Source of the DNA: Rhodospirillales bacterium
GTDB lineage: Bacteria > Pseudomonadota > Alphaproteobacteria > UBA828
DNA: 49,229 nucleotides
Reading direction: 5' to 3'
NCBI GenBank assembly: GCA_028818565.1
Contig: JAPPNV010000131.1
Span: 1-49,229 of the forward strand
Shown here: positions 18,948 through 49,229 of the stretch, in pieces
How positions within the stretch are numbered: position 1 is the first letter of the stretch
How the letters are laid out: each line of letters begins with the position of its first letter
Made by a program: the position numbers and the translations under genes
The notes under the pieces: model-generated
Told to the model about the DNA's origin: nothing
Databases searched by the model: none
The model's input: only the letters and a program-made list of their open reading frames with translations

Positions 18948-19076
18948 TTGAAAATCCTCGTCATCATCCTCTTGCTCATCATCGGCGGCGGAATCGGATT
19001 TCTTTTGACCTGGGACATCCCCCCGCCGCCCGGTCCGGTCGAAAAGGTGCTGTCCAATGATCGCTTCGAGAAGTGA
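18948..19076 (+). CDS. Small (42 aa) single-TM membrane protein, TTG start, not in the ORF track
   Basis: My own translation is MKILVIILLLIIGGGIGFLLTWDIPPPPGPVEKVLSNDRFEK. Third-position GC is high. An AGGAG lies upstream. The stop TGA overlaps GTG 19073 of the next ORF (GTGA). Confidence 0.5.
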   Translation: MKILVIILLLIIGGGIGFLLTWDIPPPPGPVEKVLSNDRFEK

Positions 19077-20980
19077 GAGCGCCTGCGGGTGATCGAATGT
19101 CTCGACTGCCCATTTGCCGTTCGCTGGTTGGCCGAAAGCCATGGTCCGCGCTTGTCGGCGCAATCCTTCCGGCCGTTCTGCTGCTGATTGCGTCCGCAGG
19201 CGAAAGCATCGCTCAGAAGGACGACGAGCCGTTGCGGCTGATCCCGCAGCAGCAGGGCGAGGAGGGCGACGATAGCGGTTCGGAGCCGGGCGAGAGCGAA
19301 GGAGAGGCCCCGAACATCGATTCGATCGTAGGCGCGGAGAGCAACGACGCGACTGACCCGGCCGCTCCTGCTTCGGCCGACAATGGTATCCAGGTCGGCG
19401 CGCTCGAGGCCATCGATCCGGACGCGGCCGGGGTGTCTCTGCCGGGTATTGAACCATTTCCAGGCGATCTCTGGTCGGGATCGCGTCGCTCCAGGGTCGA
19501 AGCCCTGGTGCCGCGCCTGCCCGTCGCGGCACCGTCCCTTGCCATGCGGCGGCTCGCGTTGGGGTTGCTCACCTCGCCGGCGCAACCGCCTGCGGGAGCG
19601 GGCGAAGCTGGTGCGCTTGCCCTCGCGCGGGCCGAGCGCCTGGTGGCCATGGGTGCGCGCGATGCTGCTCTCGCGCTGCTGGAGAGCGCGGGGCCCGAGG
19701 GCGGCCAGAGCCTCACCGCCCGGATCGAGAACGACCGTCTTCTCGCCGCGTTCGACCTTGACGCCGCTTGCGCGCAAATTCTCGGCAAGGCAGGGCGGGC
19801 CGACGACGGCTATTGGCGCCGCGTGCGCATCCTCTGTCAGGCGCACGCAGGCTTGATCGAGGCCGCGACGCTCGGCCTTGAGCTGCTGCTGGAAACGGAT
19901 ACCGCGCCTGACCAGGTGTTCGACGACGCGATCTATGCCATGGCAGGGTTGGCGGAGCCGGTGGTGGATCCGCTCGCCGATCCGACTCCCCTGCGAGTCG
20001 CCGCCTGGCGGCTTGCGCAATTCCCGATCCCGGTGGAAGCGGTGACGAGGGCAGCGCCCGATGTGCTGCCGGCGATCGTCGTCGCGCCGGAATCGCTGCC
20101 GGGGACACGGCTGCTGGCGGCGGAGCGCGCGGGGGCGAGCGGCGCGCTTCCCATCGAGGCCCTTCGCGATATCTATCGAGCCATGTCGTTCTCGTCGGAG
20201 GAGCGCGCCGACGCCCTGGCGCAGGTCGAATCGCTGGAACCGCCGCTCGGCCGCGCCTTGATGCTCCAGGCGATCGAGGCGGAGACGGCGCCTGCGCTCA
20301 GGGCAGAGCTGCTGGCGGAGGCGCTCTTTCTTGCCGAGACTCAAGGGGCTCACGGGACTGCGGCGCGAGCGTTCGCGCATCTGGTGGGCACGGTACCGCC
20401 CGCGCCCGCGCACGTCTGGTTCAGCGCGGCGGCCGGGCGAGCCCTCATCGCCGCCGGCGAGTTCGATGCGGCCGCACGCTGGTACGCACTGGCGATGGAC
20501 CATGCATCGCGAAACCCTGAAGCGATGCGCGCCTCATTGCGACTCTGGCCGTTGATGCTTCTGAGCGGCGATGACGACCATCTGACGACGGCCAAGTTCG
20601 ACGCGTGGCTTGCGCTGCGGGCCGACGAGAGCGGGCGGACCGTCGCGGTCGCGCGGGCGAACTGGCTGGCAATTCTGGTCGATGCGCTCGGCGGCCGCGT
20701 AGACCCGCAGGTCTGGGATCGCCTGTTGCTCGACGAACAGCCCGTGGCAGCGCGGGCGCGGGCGCCGGCGCTGGCGCTGACGAACGGCCTCTCGAAGGCG
20801 GCCGAGGATGGGCAGCTCGGCGAAACGGTCTTGCTGGCGCTGCTCCTGCTCGGCGACGCTGGCCCCGCCGCTGCCGGCATCGCGACCGTTGGGCCCGTGG
20901 TCTCCAACCTCGTTTCTGCTGACCAGCAGGAAGAGGCGCGGGCGATCGCCCTCGAGGCGGCGCTGGCGGCGGGGCTTTGA
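19073..20980 (+). CDS. Secreted, Ala/Leu-rich all-helical protein of unknown function
   Basis: It has a signal-peptide-like N-terminus (ALVGAILPAVLLLIASAGESIAQ), an acidic low-complexity stretch, and then about 500 aa of helical-repeat-like sequence. The start is either GTG 19073, coupled to the small ORF, or ATG 19097. Confidence 0.7.
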   Translation: MRAPAGDRMSRLPICRSLVGRKPWSALVGAILPAVLLLIASAGESIAQKDDEPLRLIPQQQGEEGDDSGSEPGESEGEAPNIDSIVGAESNDATDPAAPASADNGIQVGALEAIDPDAAGVSLPGIEPFPGDLWSGSRRSRVEALVPRLPVAAPSLAMRRLALGLLTSPAQPPAGAGEAGALALARAERLVAMGARDAALALLESAGPEGGQSLTARIENDRLLAAFDLDAACAQILGKAGRADDGYWRRVRILCQAHAGLIEAATLGLELLLETDTAPDQVFDDAIYAMAGLAEPVVDPLADPTPLRVAAWRLAQFPIPVEAVTRAAPDVLPAIVVAPESLPGTRLLAAERAGASGALPIEALRDIYRAMSFSSEERADALAQVESLEPPLGRALMLQAIEAETAPALRAELLAEALFLAETQGAHGTAARAFAHLVGTVPPAPAHVWFSAAAGRALIAAGEFDAAARWYALAMDHASRNPEAMRASLRLWPLMLLSGDDDHLTTAKFDAWLALRADESGRTVAVARANWLAILVDALGGRVDPQVWDRLLLDEQPVAARARAPALALTNGLSKAAEDGQLGETVLLALLLLGDAGPAAAGIATVGPVVSNLVSADQQEEARAIALEAALAAGL

Positions 20981-21975: not shown

Positions 21976-22160
21976 AGACATGCTTGAGCGGGCATATTGC
22001 GGCCCTGTGACAAGGCCGCCGGTTGTCGGCCTGCGGCGCGCTGTACTAATGTGCCCAACCGCCGCGGGCCATGCGACCGTCGCAGGGGAAGAGCCATCCG
22101 GATGGGCCTGCGTGCGATCATGGAGCACAGACGCGGCGTTCCGAGGATGACGCACAGCCG

Positions 22161-23318
22161 ATGAGCGGACAGCGGCCATTCCTGATTCGCATGAGCCTCT
22201 TCCTGGCCCTCGTGGTCGGGGTGGTGGTCGTGCTGAGCGACACCCTGGGCGACGCGTTCTTCGCCAATTCGATCCTGAACGGCGTCATCCTGGGCGCGCT
22301 CGTCATCGGCATCGTCTACAATTTCCGCCAGGTCCTGCTGTTGAAGCCGGATACGGCCTGGCTCGCGGCGGTGAAGAGCGACGACGTGCCGGGCGCGGCA
22401 CCGCCGGCGGCGGCGCGCAAGCCACGCCTGCTGGCGCCGCTGGCGACGATGCTGGCGGACCGGCGCGGCCGCATGACGCTCTCCGCCGTATCGCTCCGCA
22501 GCCTGCTCGACGGCATCGGCTCGCGGCTCGACGAATCGCGCGATCTGTCGCGCTACATGATCGGCCTGCTGATCTTCCTGGGTCTGCTGGGCACGTTCTG
22601 GGGGCTGCTCCAGACCGTGACCTCGGTCGGCGGCGTGATCGGCGACCTTTCGGTCGCCAACCAGGACATGATCGGCGTCTTCGACGACCTCAAGGGCGGC
22701 CTCGAAGCCCCGCTCGAAGGGATGGGGACGGCCTTCAGCTCCTCGCTCTTCGGTCTCGCGGGCTCGCTCGTCCTCGGCTTTCTCGACCTGCAGGCGAACC
22801 AGGCGCGGAACCGCTTCTACAACGAGCTGGAAGACTGGCTCTCCTCCTACACCCGGCTCACCGGCGGCACGCTGGGCGTGGAGGGCGACCAGTCGGTTCC
22901 GGCCTACGTCAGCGCGCTCCTGGAGAAGACCGCCGATAGCCTGGAGGAGCTGCAGCGCACGCTCGCCCGCGGCGAAGAGCAGCGCGCAACCTCCTCGGCA
23001 AACCTGCTGTCGCTGACCGAGCGCTTGGCCACGCTCACCGACCACATGCGCTCCGAGCAGGATCTCATGGTCAAGCTGGTGGAGAATCAGCTGGAGATGC
23101 GGCCGGTGCTGGAGCGCCTCGCGGCGGGCGCCACCCGGCAGGGCGGCCTCGACGAGCCCAGCCGCGCGCATCTGCGCAACCTCGACGTCTATCTCCAGCG
23201 GCTCCTGGAGGAGATGGTCTCCGGCCGCGAGCAGTCGGTCTCCGAGCTCCGCAGCGAGATCAAGCTCCTCGCACGGACCATAGCGGCGGTCGCCGAGAAC
23301 GATCGGCGCCAAAGCTGA
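22161..23318 (+). CDS. MotA/TolQ/ExbB-family proton-channel protein with a roughly 170-aa helical C-terminal tail
   Basis: It has four hydrophobic segments and family signature regions (LLIFLGLLGTFWGLL, GMGTAFSSSLFGLAGSLVLGFL). The C-terminus is rich in E, L, R and Q with a heptad-like pattern. ATG 22161 is chosen, immediately before the first TM. Confidence 0.8.
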   Translation: MSGQRPFLIRMSLFLALVVGVVVVLSDTLGDAFFANSILNGVILGALVIGIVYNFRQVLLLKPDTAWLAAVKSDDVPGAAPPAAARKPRLLAPLATMLADRRGRMTLSAVSLRSLLDGIGSRLDESRDLSRYMIGLLIFLGLLGTFWGLLQTVTSVGGVIGDLSVANQDMIGVFDDLKGGLEAPLEGMGTAFSSSLFGLAGSLVLGFLDLQANQARNRFYNELEDWLSSYTRLTGGTLGVEGDQSVPAYVSALLEKTADSLEELQRTLARGEEQRATSSANLLSLTERLATLTDHMRSEQDLMVKLVENQLEMRPVLERLAAGATRQGGLDEPSRAHLRNLDVYLQRLLEEMVSGREQSVSELRSEIKLLARTIAAVAENDRRQS

Positions 23319-23336
23319 TCGCGGGAGGCCCGCCCG

Positions 23337-24767
23337 GTGTTTGCCGCATCCCGCCTGAAACGAAGGGGCTCTAGCGCCGACTACTGGCCGGGCTTCGTCG
23401 ACCTGATGTCGACGCTGCTCCTGGTCATGATCTTCCTGCTCGTCGTCTACATGCTGGCGCAGTACTTCCTGCAGCGGTCTCTGTCCGAGGAGACCGAGGC
23501 GAAGGACGACCTCAACGCCCAGCTCGAAAGCCAGGAGAAGGCACTCGCCGACGAGAAGCAGGCCAGTGCGGCGCTCAGTCTCAACATCGCCCAGCTCGCG
23601 GACCAGCTGCAGAGCTCGCTCTCGGTCCGGGACCAGCTCATCGCCGAGCTTTCGATGGTGACTGGCGAACGCGACACGCTCCAGCTGCGCCTCAGGGAGA
23701 TGACGGGGGAGGGGCAGACCGCGCTCGCCGAAGCAGCGCAGGCCGCCATCCGGGCCGACGCCGGCGAGGACAGGATCAAGGTCCTGCTCTCCGACGTCGA
23801 GCGCCTGCGCCGCGACATCGACGCGCTGAACGCGGTGCGCCGGGATCTCGAGTCCAAGGTCGGGATAATGGCCGCAGCGCTGATCGAGAGCCGGGGCGAG
23901 CTCGGCGAGAGCGAAGAGGAGACCGCAGCCGTGCGGGCCGACCTCTCGGCGTTGCGCGACACATCGGCGGAGCTCGAAACGCGCCTCTCCGACGAGCAGG
24001 AGCGTACCGTGCTCGCCCAGCGCACGCTGGAAGAGCGGGAAATCCGCCTCGCCGAGGTGCAGGCCCTCCATCTTGCCGCCCAGTCCTCGTACGACAGCAG
24101 CCAGGCGGCGCTGGACGAGAACCGCCAGCTCAGCGCACGCCAGCGCGACCAGATCGCCGTGCTCAACCAGCAGATCGACGCGCTCAGGGCGCAGCTCGGG
24201 CGCGTCGAGGAAGCCCTGCAGATCTCGGAGCGCGAGAGCGAGGAGCAGGACGTCACCATCGCCAACCTGGGCCAGCGCCTCAACATGGCGCTCGCCGCCA
24301 AGGTGGAAGAGCTCGCCGCCTACCGCTCCGAGTTCTTCGGCCGGCTGCGGGAGGTGCTGAGCGACCGGCGCGACTTCACCATCATCGGCGACCGCTTCGT
24401 CTTCCAGTCCGAGGTCCTGTTCGCCCCCGCCTCCGACGAGCTGGGGCCGGAAGGTCACGACAAGTTGGCGAAGTTTACGCAGGTCCTCAAGGAGGTGATG
24501 GCTCAGATTCCGTCTGAGCTGCCCTGGATCCTGCAGGTCGACGGCCACACCGACAGCCGGCCGATACAGACGGCCCGCTTCCCGTCCAACTGGGAGCTCT
24601 CGGCGGCGCGCGCGATTTCGGTGGTGAACTTCCTCGTCGCCCTCGGCATTCCGCCCGAGCACCTGAGCGCCGCCGGCTACGGCGAGTTTCAGCCCCTCGA
24701 TGCGCGCGAGGACGAAATCGCCTATCGTCGCAACCGCCGCATCGAGCTGAAGCTGACCCAGCGTTAA
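23337..24767 (+). CDS. MotB/OmpA-family protein: N-terminal TM with conserved Asp, about 300-aa coiled coil, C-terminal OmpA_C-like peptidoglycan-binding domain
   Basis: YWPGFVDLMSTLLLVMIFLL resembles the MotB/ExbD/TolR plug and TM region. A long E/L/A/Q/R-rich region follows. The C-terminus has DGHTDSRPI, NWELSAARAISV, GYGEFQP and NRRIELKL. The SD GGGAGG lies 9 nt before GTG 23337. Confidence 0.82.
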   Translation: MFAASRLKRRGSSADYWPGFVDLMSTLLLVMIFLLVVYMLAQYFLQRSLSEETEAKDDLNAQLESQEKALADEKQASAALSLNIAQLADQLQSSLSVRDQLIAELSMVTGERDTLQLRLREMTGEGQTALAEAAQAAIRADAGEDRIKVLLSDVERLRRDIDALNAVRRDLESKVGIMAAALIESRGELGESEEETAAVRADLSALRDTSAELETRLSDEQERTVLAQRTLEEREIRLAEVQALHLAAQSSYDSSQAALDENRQLSARQRDQIAVLNQQIDALRAQLGRVEEALQISERESEEQDVTIANLGQRLNMALAAKVEELAAYRSEFFGRLREVLSDRRDFTIIGDRFVFQSEVLFAPASDELGPEGHDKLAKFTQVLKEVMAQIPSELPWILQVDGHTDSRPIQTARFPSNWELSAARAISVVNFLVALGIPPEHLSAAGYGEFQPLDAREDEIAYRRNRRIELKLTQR

Positions 24768-24960: not shown

Positions 24961-25440
24961 TCAGGCCGGCTGGGCATCCCTCAGCCAGCGCGCGAGCGCT
25001 TTGTCGGGATCGGCGATCTCATCCACCGAGCCGTACCAGTAATCCTCCCAACCGGCCTCCGGCAGGCCGGTGAAGACCATCAGGTTGAGCGGATAGGCCT
25101 CGCTGTCGGTGCAGCGGCGGAAGTCGTCGCGGAACAGAAACACCGCCTTCTCCCAGGCGATCGCCATGCCGAGCTCCACCATCACGCCTTCGTCCGGCGG
25201 GCAGCCGTTGACCACGGCGAAGATGCCGTCGGCATCGCGCACGTCGCGCAGGTCCGCCTGGCCGATCCGGTAGGCCCAGCCGGCGGTGGCCTTGTCGACC
25301 TGGTTGTTGCGGGCGAAGGGCTCCCACACCTCGGCGCCGAGCGCCTCCAGCGCCGCGACCAGCGCCTGGAGCGGCCCGTCCTTCTGCTGGGCGGAGAAGC
25401 CGTAAGGGTTCGCCAGATAGAGCGTCTTGGCCGCAGGCAT
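24961..25440 (-). CDS. Nucleoside 2-deoxyribosyltransferase-family protein
   Basis: Features typical of the NDT/Rcl/MilB fold are the N-terminal LYLANPYGF, DADGIFAVVNG...DEGVMVELGMA (candidate catalytic Glu) and WEKAVFLF. Length is 159 aa, with a good SD. Confidence 0.7.
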   Translation of the reverse strand: MPAAKTLYLANPYGFSAQQKDGPLQALVAALEALGAEVWEPFARNNQVDKATAGWAYRIGQADLRDVRDADGIFAVVNGCPPDEGVMVELGMAIAWEKAVFLFRDDFRRCTDSEAYPLNLMVFTGLPEAGWEDYWYGSVDEIADPDKALARWLRDAQPA

Positions 25441-25473
25441 GGCGCGCGCTCCCCTCTCGCCTCCCCCGTACCG

Positions 25474-26142
25474 CTACGCCGCCGCGCGGTAGCGCGCGAT
25501 GGCGGCTTCGAGGCCCGAGCGCGGGCTGGTCAGGAGCGGCACCTGGATGTCGGCGCAGCGGTCGAGTGCCGGAGTCATGGAAGCCTGGGCGAGCACGATG
25601 GCGTCGGCCGATGCCGCGGCCTCGCGCAGGCCATCGGCGATGATGCGCTCGTGGCCCTCCGCATCGCCCGCCACGAGACGGGCCCGGGCCTCCGCGAGGA
25701 CGACGGAGTCGATCTCGACCTCCTTGCCGGCGCGGCGCGCGGCGTCGGCGACCAGATCGGCGGTGGGCCCGATGGTGGTGGCGAGCGTCGCGGCGACCGT
25801 GATGCGCCGGCCGGCCGTCACCGCCGCTTCGGCCATCGGCCGGTCGACCCGGAGGATCGGCACGTCCGCTTGTGCCGCCGCGTCGTCGGCGCCGGGGCCG
25901 ACGGTGGAGCAGGTGCAGAGCACGAGCGCGGCGCCCTCCGTCGCCTCCAGCAGCGCCCTGCAGGTGCGCGCCCTGATCTCGTCGGTCAGTCCGCCCTCGT
26001 CGATCGCGTCCGTCAGCAGCGCTGCCTGAACCACGTGGCGCACCGGAACCTCGGGATCGATCTCGGCGCGCAGCTCGTCGAACAGGTCAATGAGCCCTGC
26101 CACCGTGTGAACCATGACCAACTCGCCGCTTCCGCCGCCCAT
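25474..26142 (-). CDS. Asp/Glu/hydantoin racemase superfamily protein
   Basis: It has a two-lobe pattern with the Cys-containing motif LVLCTCSTVG and a second motif IVLAQASMT. AAGGAG lies 6 nt upstream of ATG 26142. Confidence 0.65.
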   Translation of the reverse strand: MGGGSGELVMVHTVAGLIDLFDELRAEIDPEVPVRHVVQAALLTDAIDEGGLTDEIRARTCRALLEATEGAALVLCTCSTVGPGADDAAAQADVPILRVDRPMAEAAVTAGRRITVAATLATTIGPTADLVADAARRAGKEVEIDSVVLAEARARLVAGDAEGHERIIADGLREAAASADAIVLAQASMTPALDRCADIQVPLLTSPRSGLEAAIARYRAAA

Positions 26143-26213
26143 CGCCCGCTCCTTCGTGACCGTGCGCCGTCCCTATCAGATGACGGGAATTCGCGAAAGC
26201 GGCCCCGCTCCGC

Positions 26214-27014
26214 TCAAGCCCGCCAGACGACCGGGTACTGTGGATCGCTGCTGTAGGGTTCGCCGTCGCGGAGCGCGGTTGGATACTTGGGGAACTCGGC
26301 GGGCGGGTCGCGCAGGATGAAGCGTATGTCGTCGCCGAACCAGCGGTGGGTCAAGGTGCGGCGGCGGGTGTCTTGCGTAGGGTTGTTGCGGCCCTGGTGC
26401 ACGATCAGCCCCTGGAAGAAGATGCAATCCCCGGGCTCCAGCTCCCACGAAATGATGTCGTAGTCCTCGCGCGTGGCCTCGATGTCGGGACAGCGCTCGA
26501 AACCCGCGCCGGTATGGCGGCTGCCGTCCAGCATGCTGTCGAAGGGCGCAAACCAGCGCCCCCAGCGGTGGGAACCGCGCACGAACTCCAGAGTCGTCTC
26601 CGGCGTGATCGGATCGAGCGGGATCCAGTTGGAGCAGAACTGCTCGCCGTCCACCGCCATGTAGGGCTGGTCCTGGTGCCACTGGGTGAGGCCTTCGGTG
26701 CCGGGCTCTTTCACGAACACCTGGTCGTAGAAGAACGTGATAGCGGAGGCGCCCGAGAGCACGCCGGCGATTTCGGCGCATGGCCCTTCCAAAGCGAACG
26801 CCTTCATCTGCGGCACACGACGCCAGAGGTCGAAATCGTTGAAGAAGAGGCCGGGGTCGGATTTCTCAGTGTAGATTTCGACGTAGGGGCCGGGTTCCGC
26901 CATGTCGGCGGCCACGCCTTCGCGCAGGCGCTCGATCCAGTCCTGGTCGATCACGCCGCGCAGGCACACCACCCCGTCGGTGCGATAGGCGTCGATATCG
27001 GCTTGCGTCGGCAT
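26214..27014 (-). CDS. Phytanoyl-CoA dioxygenase (PhyH) family Fe(II)/2-oxoglutarate oxygenase
   Basis: The start MPTQADIDAYRTDGVVCLRGV is PhyH-like. A WHQDQPY (HxD) motif and a later His (IVHQGRNN) are present. GGAGGA lies 9 nt upstream of ATG 27014. Confidence 0.75.
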   Translation of the reverse strand: MPTQADIDAYRTDGVVCLRGVIDQDWIERLREGVAADMAEPGPYVEIYTEKSDPGLFFNDFDLWRRVPQMKAFALEGPCAEIAGVLSGASAITFFYDQVFVKEPGTEGLTQWHQDQPYMAVDGEQFCSNWIPLDPITPETTLEFVRGSHRWGRWFAPFDSMLDGSRHTGAGFERCPDIEATREDYDIISWELEPGDCIFFQGLIVHQGRNNPTQDTRRRTLTHRWFGDDIRFILRDPPAEFPKYPTALRDGEPYSSDPQYPVVWRA

Positions 27015-27198
27015 CGTGGCGCATCCTCCATCGCCTCGGCCGAGTGTACCGCGGCGGGCGCAGCGCGGGCCATTCCTCGTGTCCCTCGTCTTTCGACCCG
27101 ACTTGAATTGCGGGGCGCCGGTGCGCACCTATGGCGGCAACTTGGTGGGTCGATTCGCGGTCACGCTTGAGAATGGCCGCCGTCAGAGGAGACACAGT

Positions 27199-44543: not shown

Positions 44544-44619
44544 GCGCCCGTAGCTCAGGTGGTAGAGCATCTGACTTTTAATCAGAGGGTCCCTGGTTCG
44601 AGTCCAGGCGGGCGTACCA
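44544..44619 (+). tRNA. tRNA-Lys (anticodon UUU)
   Basis: I folded the cloverleaf by hand. The acceptor stem is GCGCCCG/CGGGCGT, the D arm GCTC...GAGC, the anticodon stem TCTGA/TCAGA with loop CTTTTAA, and the T arm CCTGG-TTCGAGT-CCAGG. CCA is encoded. Confidence 0.93.
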
Positions 44620-45250
44620 ATCAGTTCAACGCGTTAGCGGAATATCGGACTGGCCGTGATGCGGTTGTGTCAGTACCGCGTCAGTATTTTGCCCCGAATC
44701 AGCACCACTCGTGTCGGGAGCAAAAGCCGTCGTTGCTCAAGTGACCAAGCGGTGATGACCGGCGCCGGCGTTTGACCCCATGGCATCCGACGATCGGCAC
44801 ATTTCCACGCCGATCGGCGTCCAATCGGCGCTCTGGACAGCCTATTGATCCGATGAGGCAAGCGTAGTTGCCGCAATCGGACCGTCCGCATGAACGCTCG
44901 CAATCCGGGCCTCGCTCGACAACAAGAAATCCATGTCGGGAACGAGTGAGAGACTCAGGGCTGCGGCCGAGGCCTACTTCGACGAGCTACGGAGGGTACG
45001 GGCGTCGGGCGGGGCCGCCAGCGGCGCAGTAGCAGCGCATAAGGCATCCCTCAACTGAGGGACGCCAAGCGGGCAGACATTTCCTACATTAGACCTACCG
45101 CAACCAGAGGAGGACCGGCGCAGCATCGGCACAGTATCGGAGCCGTCTCCATCACACGAACATCCGACGGAACTCGCCGGCACGCTTGGCATCCGAGCAG
45201 GCCGGTGAAGGTCTGCACGAATTTGCAACGTCGATGAAGTGCGATCGCCA

Positions 45251-46402
45251 ATGAGCCAACAGGACGAATTCGAGCGCATCGTGGGGCTGCTCAACGAGGC
45301 CATGCTTGACGACGCTCGCTGGCTGGAAGCCTCCGCGCTCATCGACGAAGCCCTCGGTTCGAAGGGCAATCACCTGGTGTTCAGCAACCAGTCGTGGAAC
45401 GAGGACATCGATGTCTTCTTCGTGAGGTTTTGCTACCGCGGGGAACACCATACGGCGTTGGAGCGCGAGTACTTCCAAACCTATTACCCGGTCGACGATC
45501 ATCTCCCGGGCCTGAGACGACTCCCGGACGGCGAGATCGCTCACGTCCGAGACACGTTTGTCGAACAAGATCTCGCGAATTCGGTGATGTACAACGAAGC
45601 GATGCCGCGCTTCGGGTTTCAGAACGGCCTGAACGTGCGCATGGATGGACCGTTCCAGTCGCGCATCATCTTCGGGATCGCAGATCCCATCGGGGCGAGT
45701 GACTGGTCTTCGGGGCAGCTTGACTTGGTCAAGAGGCTTCTGCCTCACATTCGACAGTTCGTGCGAATGCGTCTCGCGCTGATCGAATCTGGGGGCCTTG
45801 GGACGACACTCAGTCAAATTCTAGAAAATGCCGGTACCGGGGTGATCCAACTCGACCGGCGCGGACGGATAGTGGCGGCGAACGACAGCGCGAGGGCGCT
45901 GCTTCGCGATAGCGACGGGTTGTCCAATCGCGACGGTGCGCTGCGCGCTGCAACGCCGGAGGACAACGACACGCTTCAGAAATTGCTGGCCCAGGCGTTG
46001 CCGCGCTTTGGCGAACAGGGCGCGAGCGGTTCGATGATGGTGAGGCGGCCGTCCCTGCTGCCGAGGTTGATATTGCACGTGAAGCCGGTGGCGAACCGGG
46101 AGGTGGACTATCGGTCCCAGCACCTGGGGGCGCTCGTGCTGATTGTCGACCCGGTTGAGCGGGTGAGGATCGACCCGGGGCTCGTGGCAGCGGCACTCGG
46201 TCTGACGCCCACGGAGACCGAGATTGCGGTGCTGCTCGCCGAAGGCCGGACCGCCCCTGAGATCGCGGAGGCGACGGGTCGCGGCTACAGCACCGTGCGC
46301 ACGCACCTGAAGCATATCTACCTCAAGCTCGGAGTCTCGCGGCAGTTTGAAGTGGCGCAGCTTGTGCTTGCGCTGTCGAACCTGCCGGTGTCCCGGGACT
46401 AG
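45251..46402 (+). CDS. LuxR-family transcriptional regulator (C-terminal HTH, N-terminal uncharacterised sensor-like domain)
   Basis: The C-terminus LTPTETEIAVLLAEGRTAPEIAEATGRGYSTVRTHLKHIYLKLGV is a GerE/LuxR-type HTH. Length is 383 aa from ATG 45251. Confidence 0.8.
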   Translation: MSQQDEFERIVGLLNEAMLDDARWLEASALIDEALGSKGNHLVFSNQSWNEDIDVFFVRFCYRGEHHTALEREYFQTYYPVDDHLPGLRRLPDGEIAHVRDTFVEQDLANSVMYNEAMPRFGFQNGLNVRMDGPFQSRIIFGIADPIGASDWSSGQLDLVKRLLPHIRQFVRMRLALIESGGLGTTLSQILENAGTGVIQLDRRGRIVAANDSARALLRDSDGLSNRDGALRAATPEDNDTLQKLLAQALPRFGEQGASGSMMVRRPSLLPRLILHVKPVANREVDYRSQHLGALVLIVDPVERVRIDPGLVAAALGLTPTETEIAVLLAEGRTAPEIAEATGRGYSTVRTHLKHIYLKLGVSRQFEVAQLVLALSNLPVSRD

Positions 46403-46572
46403 GGGAGTCAGCGCCGGCGCGTTGCGCTACCGAACGCGTGGCATACGGGCAAGGGGGCGGTCGAGCCGTTCTCGGACACAGCCGGGGGCCTGTCCGAGAC
46501 TAATTTTGGCGTTGTCCCCCAGTTGGGGGACGGCAGCAGAGCTGGAACGCCATAACGTAGCTCATTCGTCAG

Positions 46573-46606
46573 CAACGGCGCCATGCACGTGGGCATGGCG
46601 CCGTTG
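46573..46606. repeat. 14-bp perfect inverted repeat (hairpin or operator candidate)
   Basis: CAACGGCGCCATGC, loop ACGTGG, GCATGGCGCCGTTG. It lies within the 417-bp luxR-SBP intergenic region. Confidence 0.6.
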
Positions 46607-46819
46607 TCGCGTGGGCTTCAAGCGCAGCGAACAGGCGCGAAGGGCGTCGGCCACAACGCGACGTGCGACGCCACCGCACGAAGGTTGAGGACCTTCGCAG
46701 CAAACGTCAGGGAACGCTGGCGGTGCCTTGGAGACCGTCGCCAAGTCCAGGCCCGCGGCTGGTCAAGCTCTGCAGGCTGGAGACGGCCAGCCACAAACAA
46801 GGGGACAGGGAAGCAAACC

Positions 46820-47728
46820 ATGACTCAGGAACTCAGGCACCGCTTTCGGCACCGAAACGTCGCCGCAATCGTAGCGGCAGCAGCCTTGTCAATCGTGCTA
46901 GCCGGATCGCCCACTCTCGCCGGCGTTCTCGATCGTATCGCAGAGGACGGCTTCATGCGGGCTGGCACCAGGGCGAGCGCGGCCCCCTTCGCTCAGAAGA
47001 CCGCGACAGGAGAGTTCGTCGGATTCTCCGTCGACCTTCTCGGAGAGTTCCGCGCGGCCGTCGAGCGTTCACTGGGCCGCGCGGTCACGCTCGAGCTGTA
47101 CGAGGTCACGCCGACCGACAGGCTGCAGCGTGTCGCAGCGGGTGAGCTCGACATCGTGTGCGGCATCACGACGCCGACGTGGGACCGGGAAGAGCTTGTG
47201 GACTTCTCGCTGCCCTTCTTTCGCGACGGCACCCGCGTCATGGTCTATCGCCAGCGCGCAGATCGAGGTATCGATTTCGGCCAGTTCGAAGTCGGGGTTG
47301 TCGAGGGCACCACGACCGTAGGCATCGTCGAAGCGAACCTGCCCACGGCCCAAATGCGCGTCTACCCCAACATGGGCTCGGCCATGCAGGGTCTGGAGGC
47401 GGGCGAGGTGGACGGCGTCTCCAACGTTGGCGTCGTTCTGCTCGGACTAGCGGCGAGCGCCGAACCCAGACGCAGCGTCGTGCTCGTTCCGAGGACGCGG
47501 CCGTTGGCAACGGAAACTCTGGCCTGCGTGCTGCCGCAAGACGACAGCCCGTGGCGGGACCTCGTCAATCGCACGCTGGTCGACATGCTGCACGTGCACG
47601 AGAACAACTTCGAGAGCCGTTACGAGGAGATCTACGACCGATGGTTTGGTCGTAACGGGACGCTTTACTACCCACTAGACCAGAGCACGCGCGATTATCT
47701 GAGCAATCTCTCGATCTGGATGCCCTGA
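46820..47728 (+). CDS. Periplasmic solute-binding protein, family 3 (amino-acid-type SBP)
   Basis: It has a signal peptide (AAIVAAAALSIVLAGSPTLAG) and an SBP_bac_3-like pattern (GFSVDL, ELDIVCGITTPT, FSLPFF). No permease or ATPase gene is adjacent. Confidence 0.75.
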   Translation: MTQELRHRFRHRNVAAIVAAAALSIVLAGSPTLAGVLDRIAEDGFMRAGTRASAAPFAQKTATGEFVGFSVDLLGEFRAAVERSLGRAVTLELYEVTPTDRLQRVAAGELDIVCGITTPTWDREELVDFSLPFFRDGTRVMVYRQRADRGIDFGQFEVGVVEGTTTVGIVEANLPTAQMRVYPNMGSAMQGLEAGEVDGVSNVGVVLLGLAASAEPRRSVVLVPRTRPLATETLACVLPQDDSPWRDLVNRTLVDMLHVHENNFESRYEEIYDRWFGRNGTLYYPLDQSTRDYLSNLSIWMP

Positions 47729-47917
47729 ACACTGGTCGACAGCCTCCCAGGGCATACCCCGTGACCGTCTCCAGGCGTCTCATCATCGCCGAGGAGACGG
47801 TCGCGGCAGGCCAATGGATGGATCAATGAGTGCGACAACGCTTGGACGACGCGATCCATTTCATTTGACGTCGGTCCGGGGCCGTCGCCGCCATCAGCTC
47901 CCTAACTGGACAGTGCC

Positions 47918-48574
47918 ATGCTGACATTCGTCGAAGAGACCTGTCTCCTGCTGCTGGATGAGAAGAGCGGCGAGTTCCTTCCCATCCACCCCAACATCCT
48001 GGAATACGCCCTGGTCGGTGCCGTGCTGGTGGATCTGGCTTTCTCTTATCGGATCGACACCGATCCGAAGGCATTGATCGTCATGGACCGTACGCCGACC
48101 GGCCAGCCCATGCTCGACCATGTCCTGGCCAGGATTGGCGAAACCACGGAATCCACCGACGCCGCCACGTGGGTCAAGATATTGGCCAGAGATGAGGCAG
48201 CGGTTCTTCAGAAGCAAGCACTGGACCGCCTCGCGGAGCGCGGCATTCTGAAGCGGCAAGAAAAGAAATCTCTCCTGGGCTTCCGCAGCAGTCGCTACTT
48301 GACGGTCGACGGCGAGGCGGCGCGCGAAGTCAAGGATCGCATAAGGGTTCTCATCCTATCAGACGAGATTCCCGATCCTCGGGATGTCGCGCTGCTCTCG
48401 CTGGTAGATGCCTGCAACATTCTTACCGACATCTTCCCCGGCGGTGAGCTCAAGAACGCCGGCACGCGCATCAAGCAACTCCGCAACATGGATCTACTCG
48501 GCCGCGACGTAGTCGGCGCCGTTGCGGAGATCGAGCGCGTGATCGTCGCGGCGCGTGCACACGGCGCCTACTGA
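47918..48574 (+). CDS. GPP34 / GOLPH3-family protein
   Basis: The translation follows the pattern I associate with GPP34: an N-terminal LLLLDEKSG...L.YALVGAVLVDL, then ...LA.RGIL.. and ...D..LL.L......L.. Length is 218 aa. This assignment is from memory only. Confidence 0.6.
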   Translation: MLTFVEETCLLLLDEKSGEFLPIHPNILEYALVGAVLVDLAFSYRIDTDPKALIVMDRTPTGQPMLDHVLARIGETTESTDAATWVKILARDEAAVLQKQALDRLAERGILKRQEKKSLLGFRSSRYLTVDGEAAREVKDRIRVLILSDEIPDPRDVALLSLVDACNILTDIFPGGELKNAGTRIKQLRNMDLLGRDVVGAVAEIERVIVAARAHGAY

Positions 48575-48701
48575 AGGTTGGGTAATCGAACAGAACTGCG
48601 GCATGAGAATCGCTCCACGGGCGCCCATCCGAGGCACGTGCGGCGCGTCGTACCGTGGATTCTTCGACGCAAGTCACGAATAGCCAAGAACGAGTTGAGA
48701 A

Positions 48702-49229
48702 ATGACTCAAGAGCAAGACGTTGAAGCACAAGTGCCAGGTTCGATTTCCTACAAGATTCTCGTCGTGGACGATGAACCTGACTTGGAGCGCCTCGTCCTG
48801 CAGCAGATGCGCCGGGAGATTCGTCGCCGAGAGTATGAGTTCGTCTTTGCTCACAATGGCGTCGAGGCTCTTGAACGGCTCAGCCAGGATCCGGGCATCG
48901 ATTTGGTGGTCTCGGACATCAACATGCCCAAGATGGACGGTCTTGCGCTCCTTGAAAAGATTCCGGACGTCAATGCGGACGTGCGTTCCGTGATCGTGTC
49001 AGCTTACGGCGACATGAAGAACATTCGCACTGCGATGAACCGGGGTGCTTTCGATTTCGTGACCAAACCCATCGACTTCGGAGATTTTCGGGTCACAATC
49101 GAACGGACATTGCGCAACCTGATTGCGTGGAGAGAAGCGACGGAATCGCGGGAAAGGCTTCTGGCAATACAGAGCGAACTCGATGTCGCCAGCAAAATGC
49201 AACAGTCGATCCTTCCCACCGTTTTTCCC
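48702..49229 (+). CDS. Response regulator (REC) fused to the start of a PP2C/SpoIIE-type phosphatase domain; 3' end outside the window
   Basis: This is my own translation of a frame absent from the ORF track. It has ILVVDDEPD, VVSDINMPKMDG (phospho-Asp), VSAYGD and FVTKPIDF, then a linker ending in ELDVASKMQQSILP, which is typical of the entry into RsbU/SpoIIE phosphatase domains. An in-frame TAG lies 21 nt upstream of ATG 48702. Confidence 0.75.
   Translation, partial: MTQEQDVEAQVPGSISYKILVVDDEPDLERLVLQQMRREIRRREYEFVFAHNGVEALERLSQDPGIDLVVSDINMPKMDGLALLEKIPDVNADVRSVIVSAYGDMKNIRTAMNRGAFDFVTKPIDFGDFRVTIERTLRNLIAWREATESRERLLAIQSELDVASKMQQSILPTVFP

What the first reader, a model, noticed from the sequence alone, without database searches (positions are those of the whole stretch)
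22161..24767. Orphan stator-like MotA/ExbB plus MotB/OmpA pair with long coiled coils on both subunits
Two same-strand genes are separated by 18 nt, with GGGAGG lying 9 nt before the second start. Gene 1 has four TM segments and the MotA/TolQ/ExbB signature region, then about 170 aa of heptad-like E/L/R/Q-rich tail. Gene 2 opens like MotB/ExbD/TolR, with a single TM carrying the conserved Asp in FVDLMSTLL. It ends in a canonical OmpA_C-like peptidoglycan-binding domain and has about 300 aa of predicted coiled coil in between. Nowhere in the 49 kb are there flagellar, TonB, Tol-Pal, gliding or Zorya accessory genes. A fully extended 300-residue helix at about 0.15 nm per residue would be longer than a typical periplasm. 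The linker must therefore fold back or do something other than span to the cell wall. The architecture says ion-driven 5:2-type motor unit, but the output it drives is not evident, so this is my best candidate for an uncharacterised system here.
Basis: partly seen in the sequence, partly recalled or inferred. Interest (0 to 1): 0.72.

Follow-up and report, generated by a model that had tools for sequence, protein, structure and literature searches.

The report
Conserved alphaproteobacterial ZorAB-like motor pair
These two genes encode a widespread but mechanistically unstudied alphaproteobacterial membrane complex that looks like an ion-driven rotary motor anchored to the cell wall; databases usually mislabel it as a flagellar stator, and its nearest sequence relatives are the motors of the Zorya anti-phage system.

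Summary
Gene A (22161-23318, 385 aa) and gene B (23337-24767, 476 aa) are real, co-oriented and 18 nt apart. A has a MotA/ExbB/TolQ-type channel core and a 138-170 aa helical cytoplasmic tail. B has one TM helix with an invariant Asp, about 295 aa of coiled coil and an intact MotB-type peptidoglycan-binding domain.

The pair is not unique. It belongs to a large, vertically inherited alphaproteobacterial family. All 80 related genome loci keep A followed by B, usually in an efp / inositol-monophosphatase / A / B synteny shared with Sinorhizobium meliloti.

B is NCBIfam PRK09039. A is closest in sequence to ZorA, not to flagellar MotA. No flagellar, Ton, Tol, gliding or Zorya accessory gene is linked.

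The 'motA/motB' genes studied in flagellum-less Komagataeibacter hansenii belong to this family. They affect cell length, spreading and cellulose texture there, and disruption mutants were obtained.

A new finding is that the periplasmic coiled coil of B varies from about 140 to 500 residues. It changes in whole heptads and keeps one unbroken register.

Best reading: a wall-anchored, ion-driven 5:2 motor with a housekeeping envelope role and an unknown output. I rate it a new variant of a known kind, of moderately high interest.

The parts
22161..23318 (+). Gene A: 385-aa MotA/ExbB/TolQ/ZorA-type channel subunit with a cytoplasmic helical tail
   Evidence: ORF and GC3 0.89. More than 8000 homologues. 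PADLOC ZorA1 E 1.1e-13. AF2 pLDDT 86.6. Foldseek hits TolQ, ExbB and ZorA.
22179..22334 (+). A residues 7-58: N-terminal TM1-TM2 hairpin
   Evidence: Hydropathy peaks at 7-25 and 34-60; the short acidic loop between them has no Lys or Arg. AF2 helices 5-24, 26-35 and 37-59.
22551..22793 (+). A residues 131-211: channel core, comprising TM3 (FLGLLGTFWGL), an acidic periplasmic loop and TM4 (GMGTAFSSSLFGLAGS)
   Evidence: This is the most conserved part of A (mean 0.77 and 0.83 for TM3 and TM4). Invariant L140, G141, G144, T145, G148, L149, F192, G198, L199. It aligns to ZorA of 8vvn_C.
22899..23312 (+). A residues 247-384: cytoplasmic tail, two long helices (247-326 and 332-384) behind a flexible linker (231-246)
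   Evidence: AF2. Heptad periodicity reached by 0 of 2000 shuffles. Homologues carry 2-5 tandem copies of the tail module.
23247..23294 (+). A residues 363-378: conserved tail-tip motif LRSEIKLLARTIAAVA
   Evidence: More conserved (0.59) than the rest of the tail (0.34-0.45). Retained at the C-terminus of the long tail variants P0122, P0162 and P0228, more loosely in P0178, and in the low-GC member of L083 (EIRLLTKTI).
23323..23328 (+). GGGAGG ribosome-binding site for B, 8 nt before the GTG start
   Evidence: Read directly from the sequence.
23337..24767 (+). Gene B: 476-aa MotB/ZorB-like subunit, NCBIfam PRK09039 'peptidoglycan-binding protein'
   Evidence: NF006543 scores 412.6 bits against a cut-off of 305. 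PADLOC ZorB3 E 3.4e-31. More than 8000 homologues.
23385..23474 (+). B residues 17-46: WPGFVD motif and the single TM helix; Asp22 is at 23400-23402
   Evidence: The Asp is present in all 81 full-length homologues. The N-terminus carries 4 Lys/Arg. This region matches ZorB of 8vvn_B.
23475..24359 (+). B residues 47-341: periplasmic coiled coil in one continuous heptad register
   Evidence: AF2 helices 18-187 and 195-341. Periodicity reached by 0 of 2000 shuffles, with constant phase up to about residue 300. Family lengths are quantised in heptads, and phase is constant over 143-499 residues in eight of nine homologues.
23889..23924 (+). B residues 185-196: low-confidence break in the AF2 model and the hot spot for length variation
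   Evidence: pLDDT below 50. Most of the length difference among homologues maps to the central region around this break, as tandem heptad modules. Heptad phase is unchanged across it.
24375..24767 (+). B residues 347-476: OmpA/MotB-type peptidoglycan-binding domain
   Evidence: Pfam OmpA E 2.9e-15. Best fold matches are the MotS, MotB and PomB periplasmic domains. D406, N418 and R425 are invariant.

Best explanation
A and B form an inner-membrane complex of the MotAB/ExbBD/TolQR/ZorAB superfamily, most likely A5B2.

Proposed mechanism: protons (or another ion) pass the invariant Asp22 on the B helix and the conserved Thr/Ser-rich TM3 and TM4 of A. This flow makes the A ring turn around the B dimer. 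B is fixed to peptidoglycan by its MotB-type domain, which sits at the end of a long parallel coiled coil. The moving output is then the cytoplasmic face of A: five helical tails that end in a conserved tip motif and probably engage a partner encoded elsewhere.

The system is a vertically inherited housekeeping component of the alphaproteobacterial envelope. It is neither a flagellar stator nor a defence island. Its cellular role probably concerns envelope or cell-length organisation.

Shown here: domain architecture, motif conservation, family membership, synteny, heptad-quantised rod length, and family identity with the Komagataeibacter genes.

Inferred, not shown: 5:2 stoichiometry, ion flow, rotation, which part moves, and the cellular process served.
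For: Channel core:
- Invariant LGxxGTxxGL and F192/G198/L199 in 80 diverse homologues.
- 56 of 80 homologues hit Pfam MotA_ExbB and 80 of 80 hit PADLOC ZorA1.
- The AF2 model (pLDDT 86.6) matches TolQ, ExbB and ZorA chains, mostly with probability 0.9-1.0.

B subunit:
- The Asp is kept in all 81 full-length homologues.
- The peptidoglycan-contact residues are invariant.
- The fold matches the MotS, MotB and PomB periplasmic domains.

Operon:
- 18-nt gap with an RBS.
- A is followed by B in 80 of 80 genome loci.

Housekeeping nature:
- efp / inositol monophosphatase / (OmpA-like) / A / B / MsbA-related ABC synteny is shared by Rhodospirillales, Acetobacteraceae and S. meliloti.
- There are thousands of homologues.

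Not flagellar:
- The K. hansenii genes belong to this family by primer-derived termini, and that organism has no flagella.

Phenotypes:
- Overexpression gives longer cells, threefold more spreading and looser cellulose. Disruption mutants were obtained and give denser cellulose.

Tail tip:
- The tip is conserved while tail length varies by tandem modules.
Against: - No stoichiometry, ion-flux or rotation evidence exists for any member.
- Pfam MotA_ExbB is below its cut-off for this A (14.4 bits against 22.9).
- The A tail hangs on a 16-residue low-confidence linker, which would make a poor rigid shaft.
- A coiled coil of 21-75 nm is a torsionally soft anchor and far exceeds the distance from inner membrane to wall. 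How it could hold B static is unclear.
- Two low-GC distant members keep efp-suhB-A but have no B next to A within the contig.
- The Komagataeibacter phenotypes come largely from overexpression. Fluorescence from a GFP fused to the periplasmic C-terminus of B is unexpected for a Sec-exported GFP (my own knowledge). The reported polar foci may therefore be aggregates.
Confidence: 0.55

Rival explanations
1. It is a passive inner-membrane-to-wall tether or periplasmic ruler. The complex has lost motor activity, and the long coiled coil of B simply staples or spaces the inner membrane relative to peptidoglycan. It might also build a periplasmic scaffold.
For: - The rod is unbroken and heptad-quantised, with lineage-specific length of 143-499 residues.
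- The wall-binding residues are intact.
- Disruption mutants of K. hansenii were obtained and change surface and cellulose texture.
Against: - The Asp in B and the channel residues in A are invariant or near-invariant across the family. A passive tether would not need that conservation.
- A conserved cytoplasmic tail tip suggests an output.
- Rod lengths of 21-75 nm do not fit one periplasmic spacing.
Confidence: 0.15
2. It is a Tol/Ton-like energiser. The A ring powers conformational work in B itself, which combines a TolR-like helix, a TolA-like long helical domain and a Pal-like wall-binding domain. This would remodel or reposition wall or outer-membrane contacts, possibly together with the OmpA-like protein encoded upstream in many relatives.
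For: - The top fold matches of A include TolQ and ExbB.
- 45-47 of 80 loci carry a secreted Pro/Ala-rich OmpA-like protein directly upstream of A.
- The cell-length phenotype on overexpression resembles the tolQ/tolR overexpression phenotype discussed in PMC6570709.
Against: - The periplasmic domain of B is MotB-type, not the TolR/ExbD fold.
- There is no TolA or TonB-like gene in the locus.
- The upstream OmpA-like gene is absent from this window, from Acetobacteraceae and from S. meliloti.
- NCBIfam TolQ and ExbB models do not hit A.
Confidence: 0.15
3. It is a minimal Zorya-type anti-phage sensor. The pair would detect envelope perturbation by phage and signal through the A tail to effectors encoded elsewhere.
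For: - ZorA and ZorB are the nearest sequence relatives: PADLOC 80 of 80 homologues, NCBIfam ZorA_2 and ZorA_4 as the only named motor hits, and PDB sequence hits to ZorA and ZorB of 8vvn.
- It shares with Zorya the combination of a tail on A and a wall-binding B.
Against: - Scores are far below the NCBIfam ZorA cut-offs (17 bits against 100-500).
- No ZorC, D, E, F or G gene is present. Every Pfam hit among the neighbouring genes is housekeeping or metabolic. The neighbours themselves were not scanned against PADLOC.
- The pair holds a conserved chromosomal position across orders, whereas defence systems are sporadic and island-borne (my own knowledge).
- The tail is 138-170 aa, against roughly 450-500 aa in ZorA (8vvn_C is 696 aa).
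- ZorB, as solved in 8vvn_B, is 282 aa and has no room for a 295-aa coiled coil.
Confidence: 0.12
4. It is a genuine flagellar stator, as many database records name it ('flagellar motor protein MotA', 'chemotaxis protein MotB').
For: - Source names.
- The wall-binding domain of B is closest to MotS, MotB and PomB.
- Soft-agar spreading changes in K. hansenii.
Against: - Flagellar MotA appears only at rank 43 of the fold search, with probability 0.75.
- No NCBIfam MotA or PomA model hits A.
- No flagellar gene is in the window or in the conserved synteny.
- The family is kept in a genus without flagella.
- Neither a 295-aa coiled coil in B nor a tail on A is a feature of known stators.
Confidence: 0.03

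Closest known systems
Zorya ZorA/ZorB core (type I ZorAB, PDB 8vvn and 8qyd)
   Same: ZorAB is the nearest relative by sequence for both subunits. The shared TM motifs are GTFxGL and AFxxSxxGxAxS. All 80 A homologues hit the PADLOC ZorA1 model. The N-terminal region of B, including the TM helix, matches ZorB. The architecture is also shared: the A subunit has a C-terminal cytoplasmic helical tail, and the B subunit has a TM Asp and a wall-binding domain.
   Different: - The tail is three to four times shorter and sits behind a flexible linker.
- B carries a 140-500 residue periplasmic coiled coil that ZorB lacks.
- No effector genes are present.
- The pair has a vertically inherited core-genome position rather than a defence-island one.
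- Scores are far below the NCBIfam ZorA cut-offs.
Flagellar stators MotAB, PomAB and MotPS
   Same: Both are two adjacent genes. A has four TM segments. B has a single TM helix with Asp and a MotB-type OmpA-like domain, which gives the best fold matches.
   Different: - A lacks a detectable flagellar torque-generating cytoplasmic domain.
- There is no flagellar gene linkage.
- The family is present in non-flagellated Komagataeibacter.
- Both subunits carry long coiled coils.
TolQR-TolA-Pal and ExbBD-TonB
   Same: The fold of the A core resembles TolQ and ExbB (probability 0.9-1.0, TM-score about 0.5 normalised by target length). These systems are also PMF-driven envelope machines of housekeeping character.
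   Different: - B has a MotB-type wall-binding domain instead of the TolR/ExbD fold.
- No TolA or TonB partner is present.
- A has an extra N-terminal TM segment and a C-terminal tail.
Komagataeibacter hansenii 'motA/motB' (Jacek et al. 2018-2019; PMC6570709, PMC6315621)
   Same: They belong to the same family. The primer-derived MotA N-terminus (V-T-R-P-T-T-Y) and MotB C-terminus (E-F-R-L-T-D-R-stop) equal those of the Acetobacteraceae A and B homologues in my loci. The genes are adjacent and the organism has no flagella.
   Different: The proteins are shorter (348 and 321 aa). They were interpreted as motility genes. No structural, ion-flux or partner analysis was done, and the ZorAB relationship and coiled-coil features were not noted.

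Membership tests
NCBIfam PRK09039 (NF006543) peptidoglycan-binding protein | Whole-protein HMM score above the curated cut-off | tested here: met
   B scores 412.6 bits against a cut-off of 305. The S. meliloti orthologue scores 692 bits on NF006544.
MotA/ExbB/TolQ superfamily (Pfam PF01618) | HMM score above the gathering threshold | tested here: inconclusive
   This A scores 14.4 bits against a cut-off of 22.9. However, 56 of 80 family members match at E<0.01 (best 1.1e-8), and the fold matches TolQ, ExbB and ZorA.
5:2 ion-driven motors (general) | Conserved acidic residue in the single TM helix of the B subunit | tested here: met
   Asp of WPGFVD is present in all 81 full-length B homologues.
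5:2 ion-driven motors (general) | A5B2 stoichiometry and ion-dependent rotation | not testable with these tools
   No multimer prediction or experiment was available. Only monomer AF2 models were made.
Flagellar stator MotAB/PomAB | MotA-type cytoplasmic torque-generating domain and sequence membership | tested here: not met
   No NCBIfam MotA or PomA model hit at E<=1. Flagellar MotA is only rank 43 in Foldseek, with probability 0.75.
Flagellar stator MotAB/PomAB | Association with flagellar genes or flagellated organisms | tested here: not met
   No flagellar genes in the 49 kb window or in the conserved synteny. The family is present in non-flagellated K. hansenii.
Flagellar stator MotAB/PomAB | B subunit with a MotB-type OmpA-like wall-binding domain | tested here: met
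   Pfam OmpA E 2.9e-15. Top fold hits are MotS, MotB and PomB.
Zorya (ZorAB plus effectors) | ZorA and ZorB sequence similarity | tested here: inconclusive
   PADLOC ZorA1 E 1.1e-13 and ZorB3 E 3.4e-31, with 80 of 80 members hitting ZorA1. NCBIfam ZorA_2 and ZorA_4 score only 17 bits against cut-offs of 100-500.
Zorya (ZorAB plus effectors) | Adjacent effector genes (ZorC/D, ZorE or ZorF/G) | tested here: not met
   Neighbours are xerD, a nucleoside 2-deoxyribosyltransferase, a racemase and PhyH in the window. In relatives they are efp, inositol monophosphatase and an MsbA-related ABC exporter. This assignment rests on Pfam and NCBIfam hits; the neighbours were not scanned against PADLOC.
Zorya (ZorAB plus effectors) | Very long ZorA tail (several hundred residues) and a compact ZorB | tested here: not met
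   The tail is 138-170 aa, against 696-aa ZorA in 8vvn_C. B has a 295-aa coiled coil, against 282-aa ZorB in 8vvn_B.
TolQR / ExbBD | TolR/ExbD-type periplasmic domain and an adjacent TolA or TonB partner | tested here: not met
   The periplasmic domain of B is OmpA/MotB-type. No TolA or TonB gene is in the window or in the conserved synteny. No NCBIfam TolQ or ExbB hit for A.

The most novel reading that the evidence does not exclude
This would be a previously unrecognised, vertically inherited rotary motor of Alphaproteobacteria and the housekeeping sister (or source) lineage of the Zorya ZorAB motor. It would drive a cellular process not yet assigned to any 5:2 motor, such as envelope, cell-length or pole organisation. 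The output would be a cytoplasmic tail with a conserved tip, and the anchor a periplasmic coiled-coil rod whose length evolves in whole heptads from about 21 to 75 nm.
Probability: 0.35. Interest if true: 0.8.

Novelty: new variant of a known kind. Interest (0 to 1): 0.62.

Why it matters
Ion-driven 5:2 motors are known to power flagella, gliding, Ton and Tol transport and Zorya defence. Each new output has been a notable discovery.

This family is present across Rhodospirillales, Acetobacteraceae and Rhizobiaceae, in thousands of genomes, yet it has no assigned mechanism. It is routinely annotated as a flagellar stator, which misleads motility inference in non-flagellated bacteria.

Its specific similarity to ZorAB offers a testable route to the evolutionary origin of the Zorya motor. 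It also offers a genetically tractable housekeeping model, in Sinorhizobium or Komagataeibacter, for how a tailed MotA-like ring transmits a signal or force into the cytoplasm.

The heptad-quantised rod, up to 500 residues long and without a stutter, is an unusual structural feature for a periplasmic protein. It raises a concrete physical question about how torque or tension is handled in the periplasm.

Tried and rejected
- **Hairpin model for the B linker.** AF2 breaks the helix at 185-196, and most length variation maps to the central region around it. However, Gly/Pro positions show no conserved mid-point hinge, and some homologues have about 250 residues without Gly or Pro. Heptad phase is also continuous across the break and through linkers of 143-499 residues in eight of nine homologues; L042 shifts by about 60 degrees midway. 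I therefore favour a continuous rod. The fold-back option is not excluded.
- **Apparent A-B fusion proteins (L050, P0212).** These are frameshifts inside the tail-tip motif, not real fusions.
- **Literature.** Searches for ZorAB-like, Zorya-like, orphan or non-flagellar MotAB, PRK09039, and 'ExbB proton channel' with alphaproteobacterial model organisms found no mechanistic study. The Rgs/Tol-Pal paper in S. meliloti does not mention MotA, MotB or OmpA proteins. The mBio 2025 MotAB phylogeny excludes ZorAB and does not describe this family. The Bartonella and blue-light hits were irrelevant.
- **Exact-sequence look-up of A** found no record.
- **Phmmer of A alone against the PDB** gave only coiled-coil noise. 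The family profile was needed to reach ZorA.
- **The upstream OmpA-like third gene** seen in relatives is not in the window.
- **Promoter and terminator scans** gave nothing above chance, apart from a GC-rich hairpin 135 nt after B.


Full report
**1. What is in the sequence**

Two ORFs with strongly coding-type composition (GC3 0.89 and 0.90) lie on the + strand.
- Gene A runs 22161-23318 and encodes 385 aa.
- Gene B runs 23337-24767, starts with GTG and encodes 476 aa.

An in-frame ATG at 22071 would extend A by 30 residues. Homologues begin at the 22161 Met and cover the query from residue 1, so I keep that start. The genes are 18 nt apart. GGGAGG lies 8 nt before the GTG of B.

The rest of the window encodes housekeeping and metabolic functions: mnmA, RNase D, peroxiredoxins, aconitase, ccmB, accA, a CNNM transporter, aroB, xerD, amidases, purA, hisS and others. 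No flagellar, Ton, Tol, gliding or Zorya-accessory gene is present.

**2. Anatomy of A**

- *TM segments.* Hydropathy gives TM segments at 7-25, 34-60 and 132-150. The fourth (about 187-211) is Gly/Ser/Ala-rich and is assigned from homology and the AF2 helix 170-230.
- *Topology.* Charge distribution fits an N-in, C-in topology. The loop 57-130 has 11 Lys/Arg, and the two short loops are acidic.
- *Conserved residues.* In an alignment of 80 diverse homologues (33-60% identical), L140, G141, G144, T145, G148, L149, F192, G198 and L199 are invariant. TM3 and TM4 are the most conserved parts.
- *Structure.* The AF2 model is confident (pLDDT 86.6). After TM4 come a low-confidence 16-residue linker and two long helices, 247-326 and 332-384.
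- *Tail.* The tail has significant heptad periodicity. Its tip, LRSEIKLLARTIAAVA, is clearly more conserved than the rest of the tail.
- *Tail variants.* Longer family members (574-614 aa) carry two to five tandem copies of the tail module '..GGLDE..R.HLRNLD..L.RL.EE..'. P0122, P0162 and P0228 still end with the same tip motif, and P0178 keeps it more loosely.

**3. Anatomy of B**

- *N-terminus and TM helix.* A basic N-terminus is followed by WPGFVD and one TM helix. The Asp is present in all 81 full-length homologues examined.
- *Structure.* AF2 gives helices 18-187 and 195-341, then an alpha/beta domain at 347-475.
- *Wall-binding domain.* It scores as Pfam OmpA (E 2.9e-15). Its best fold matches are the periplasmic domains of MotS, MotB and PomB. 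Its peptidoglycan-contact residues (D406, N418, R425) are invariant.

**4. The periplasmic rod of B**

- *Length range.* The distance from WPGFVD to the C-terminus ranges from 319 to 678 residues among homologues.
- *Heptad quantisation.* 17 of 31 distinct lengths fall in one residue class modulo 7 (binomial P about 1e-6 after correcting for seven classes). Among close homologues, 11 of 13 do so.
- *Where the variation lies.* Most of it is central and consists of tandem heptad modules.
- *Register.* The 3.5-residue hydrophobic signal keeps one phase from the membrane to about residue 300 in the window protein, including across the AF2 break. It also keeps one phase through linkers of 143-499 residues in eight of nine homologues. 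Total power grows with length from about 3 to 8, against 0.2 for shuffles. In L042 the phase shifts by about 60 degrees midway.
- *Physical consequence.* At 0.15 nm per residue this corresponds to roughly 21-75 nm, well beyond any distance from inner membrane to wall. A search for a conserved Gly/Pro hinge was negative. I therefore favour a continuous, probably parallel dimeric rod that must tilt or lie along the envelope. A fold-back is not excluded.

**5. Family and relatives**

- *B.* It is a member of NCBIfam PRK09039, 'peptidoglycan-binding protein' (412.6 bits against a cut-off of 305).
- *A, curated models.* A has no curated family. It is below the Pfam MotA_ExbB cut-off. The only named motor models it touches in NCBIfam are ZorA_4 and ZorA_2, at E about 0.002 and far below their cut-offs.
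- *A, PADLOC.* A hits ZorA1 at E 1.1e-13 and B hits ZorB3 at E 3.4e-31. All 80 family members hit ZorA1, and 56 of 80 hit Pfam MotA_ExbB.
- *PDB sequences.* A family profile finds only one motor protein, ZorA of the Shewanella type I ZorAB complex (8vvn_C). The shared motifs are GTFxGL and AFxxSxxGxAxS. The TM region of B matches ZorB (8vvn_B).
- *Fold.* The A core matches TolQ, ExbB and ZorA about equally. Flagellar MotA ranks only 43rd.

**6. Distribution and context**

- *Size of the family.* More than 8000 homologues of each protein were found, which is the cap of the search. 2909 cluster representatives at 50% identity match A.
- *Adjacency.* In 80 genome loci A is always followed by B. 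These come from Rhodospirillales, Acetobacteraceae, Magnetospirillum, Caenispirillum, Inquilinus, Telmatospirillum and others.
- *Common synteny.* Outside the window's own clade the usual context is thiE / efp / inositol monophosphatase / (OmpA-like) / A / B / convergent MsbA-related ABC exporter.
- *S. meliloti.* Its chromosome has thiE / Sel1 / inositol monophosphatase / A (368 aa) / B (342 aa) / ABC / rpmE. The position is therefore conserved across orders, which is the pattern of a vertically inherited core gene pair.
- *The window's clade.* Here the pair sits behind xerD. The window itself has also lost the downstream ABC gene.
- *Exceptions.* Two distant low-GC members keep efp-suhB-A but have no B next to A within the contig.

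**7. Experimental knowledge**

The only functional work I found concerns 'motA' and 'motB' of Komagataeibacter hansenii, a genus without flagella.

The published primers give the MotA N-terminus V-T-R-P-T-T-Y and the MotB C-terminus E-F-R-L-T-D-R-stop. These are identical to the termini of the Acetobacteraceae A and B homologues in my loci (MTRPTTY... and ...NRRIEFRLTDR). Those genes therefore belong to this family.

- Overexpression lengthened cells, tripled colony spreading on soft agar and loosened the cellulose network.
- GFP fusions formed polar foci.
- Disruption mutants were obtained and made denser cellulose.

The authors read the genes as motility genes. Caveat from my own knowledge: GFP exported to the periplasm through Sec normally does not fluoresce. 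The polar MotB-GFP signal may therefore be aggregate.

**8. Interpretation**

The invariant Asp, the conserved channel helices and the intact wall-binding domain argue for an active ion-driven complex of the 5:2 class, fixed to peptidoglycan. Its output would be on the cytoplasmic side, through the tails of A and their conserved tip. That is the ZorAB logic. It is neither the flagellar logic nor the Ton/Tol logic.

The conserved chromosomal position, the absence of effectors and the huge phyletic spread argue for a housekeeping role rather than defence.

What the motor drives is unknown. How a long, torsionally soft rod can serve as a stator anchor is also unexplained. The rival readings are a passive tether, a Tol-like energiser possibly working with the upstream OmpA-like protein, a Zorya-like sensor and a flagellar stator. 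They are weighed in the rival explanations.

**9. Verdict**

The main amendment is that this is a large, catalogued but mechanistically uncharacterised family, ZorAB-like in sequence, with limited genetics in Komagataeibacter.

I rate it a new variant of a known kind, with interest about 0.6.

Noticed in passing
window 44544-49229: tRNA-Lys(ttt) lies at 44544-44619. It is followed by a stretch of lower G+C (0.61-0.64 against about 0.69) that encodes a LuxR-type regulator, a family-3 solute-binding protein and a GPP34-family protein. This may be an island inserted at the tRNA.
   Followed up: partly
window 24961-27128 (minus strand), compared with L001-L013: In the closest relatives (92-98% identical A) B is followed by a convergent MsbA-related ABC exporter (TIGR02204). 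The window instead carries a nucleoside 2-deoxyribosyltransferase, an Asp/Glu racemase and a PhyH dioxygenase. This looks like a local gene replacement right after B.
   Followed up: partly
window 19073-20980 (+): A 635-aa Ala-rich protein has an N-terminal hydrophobic segment and no Pfam or NCBIfam hit. It lies between aroB and xerD and is conserved in 15 related loci.
   Followed up: no
L019:8823-9971, L014 and about 45 other loci, directly upstream of A: Many relatives carry an extra gene of about 370 aa. It has a signal peptide with a lipobox-like LAGC, a long Pro/Ala-rich region and an OmpA-like C-terminus. It is absent from the window, from Acetobacteraceae and from S. meliloti, and could be a lineage-specific third component.
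   Followed up: partly
P0122, P0162, P0178, P0228 (A homologues of 574-614 aa): The cytoplasmic tail of A expands by tandem duplication of a module of about 55 residues ('GGLDE..R.HLRNLD..L.RL.EE'). The C-terminal tip motif is kept in three of the four variants and more loosely in P0178. This mirrors the modular length variation of the B rod.
   Followed up: partly
L050:9971-12151 and P0212: Apparent single-ORF A-B fusions are frameshifts inside the tail-tip motif. They are probably assembly errors in metagenome bins rather than real fusions.
   Followed up: yes
L082 (39% G+C) and L083 (47.5% G+C): Distant low-GC members keep efp / inositol monophosphatase / A with all A motifs. No B-like gene follows within the contig; the neighbours are EamA, pyruvate kinase and unrelated proteins. 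B may be unlinked or lost in these lineages.
   Followed up: partly
L081:5340-6485 (S. meliloti, two genes upstream of A): A Sel1-repeat protein sits next to the pair in S. meliloti. The polar-growth factor RgsF of Krol et al. 2020 is described as TPR plus six Sel1 repeats. Whether they are the same gene was not checked.
   Followed up: no
CP090106.1 in the plasmid collection: The 3.72-Mb record titled 'S. meliloti strain Ak57 plasmid pSymB' carries chromosomal housekeeping genes (purE, rpmE, thiE and a type B L36 gene). It looks like a mislabelled main chromosome.
   Followed up: no
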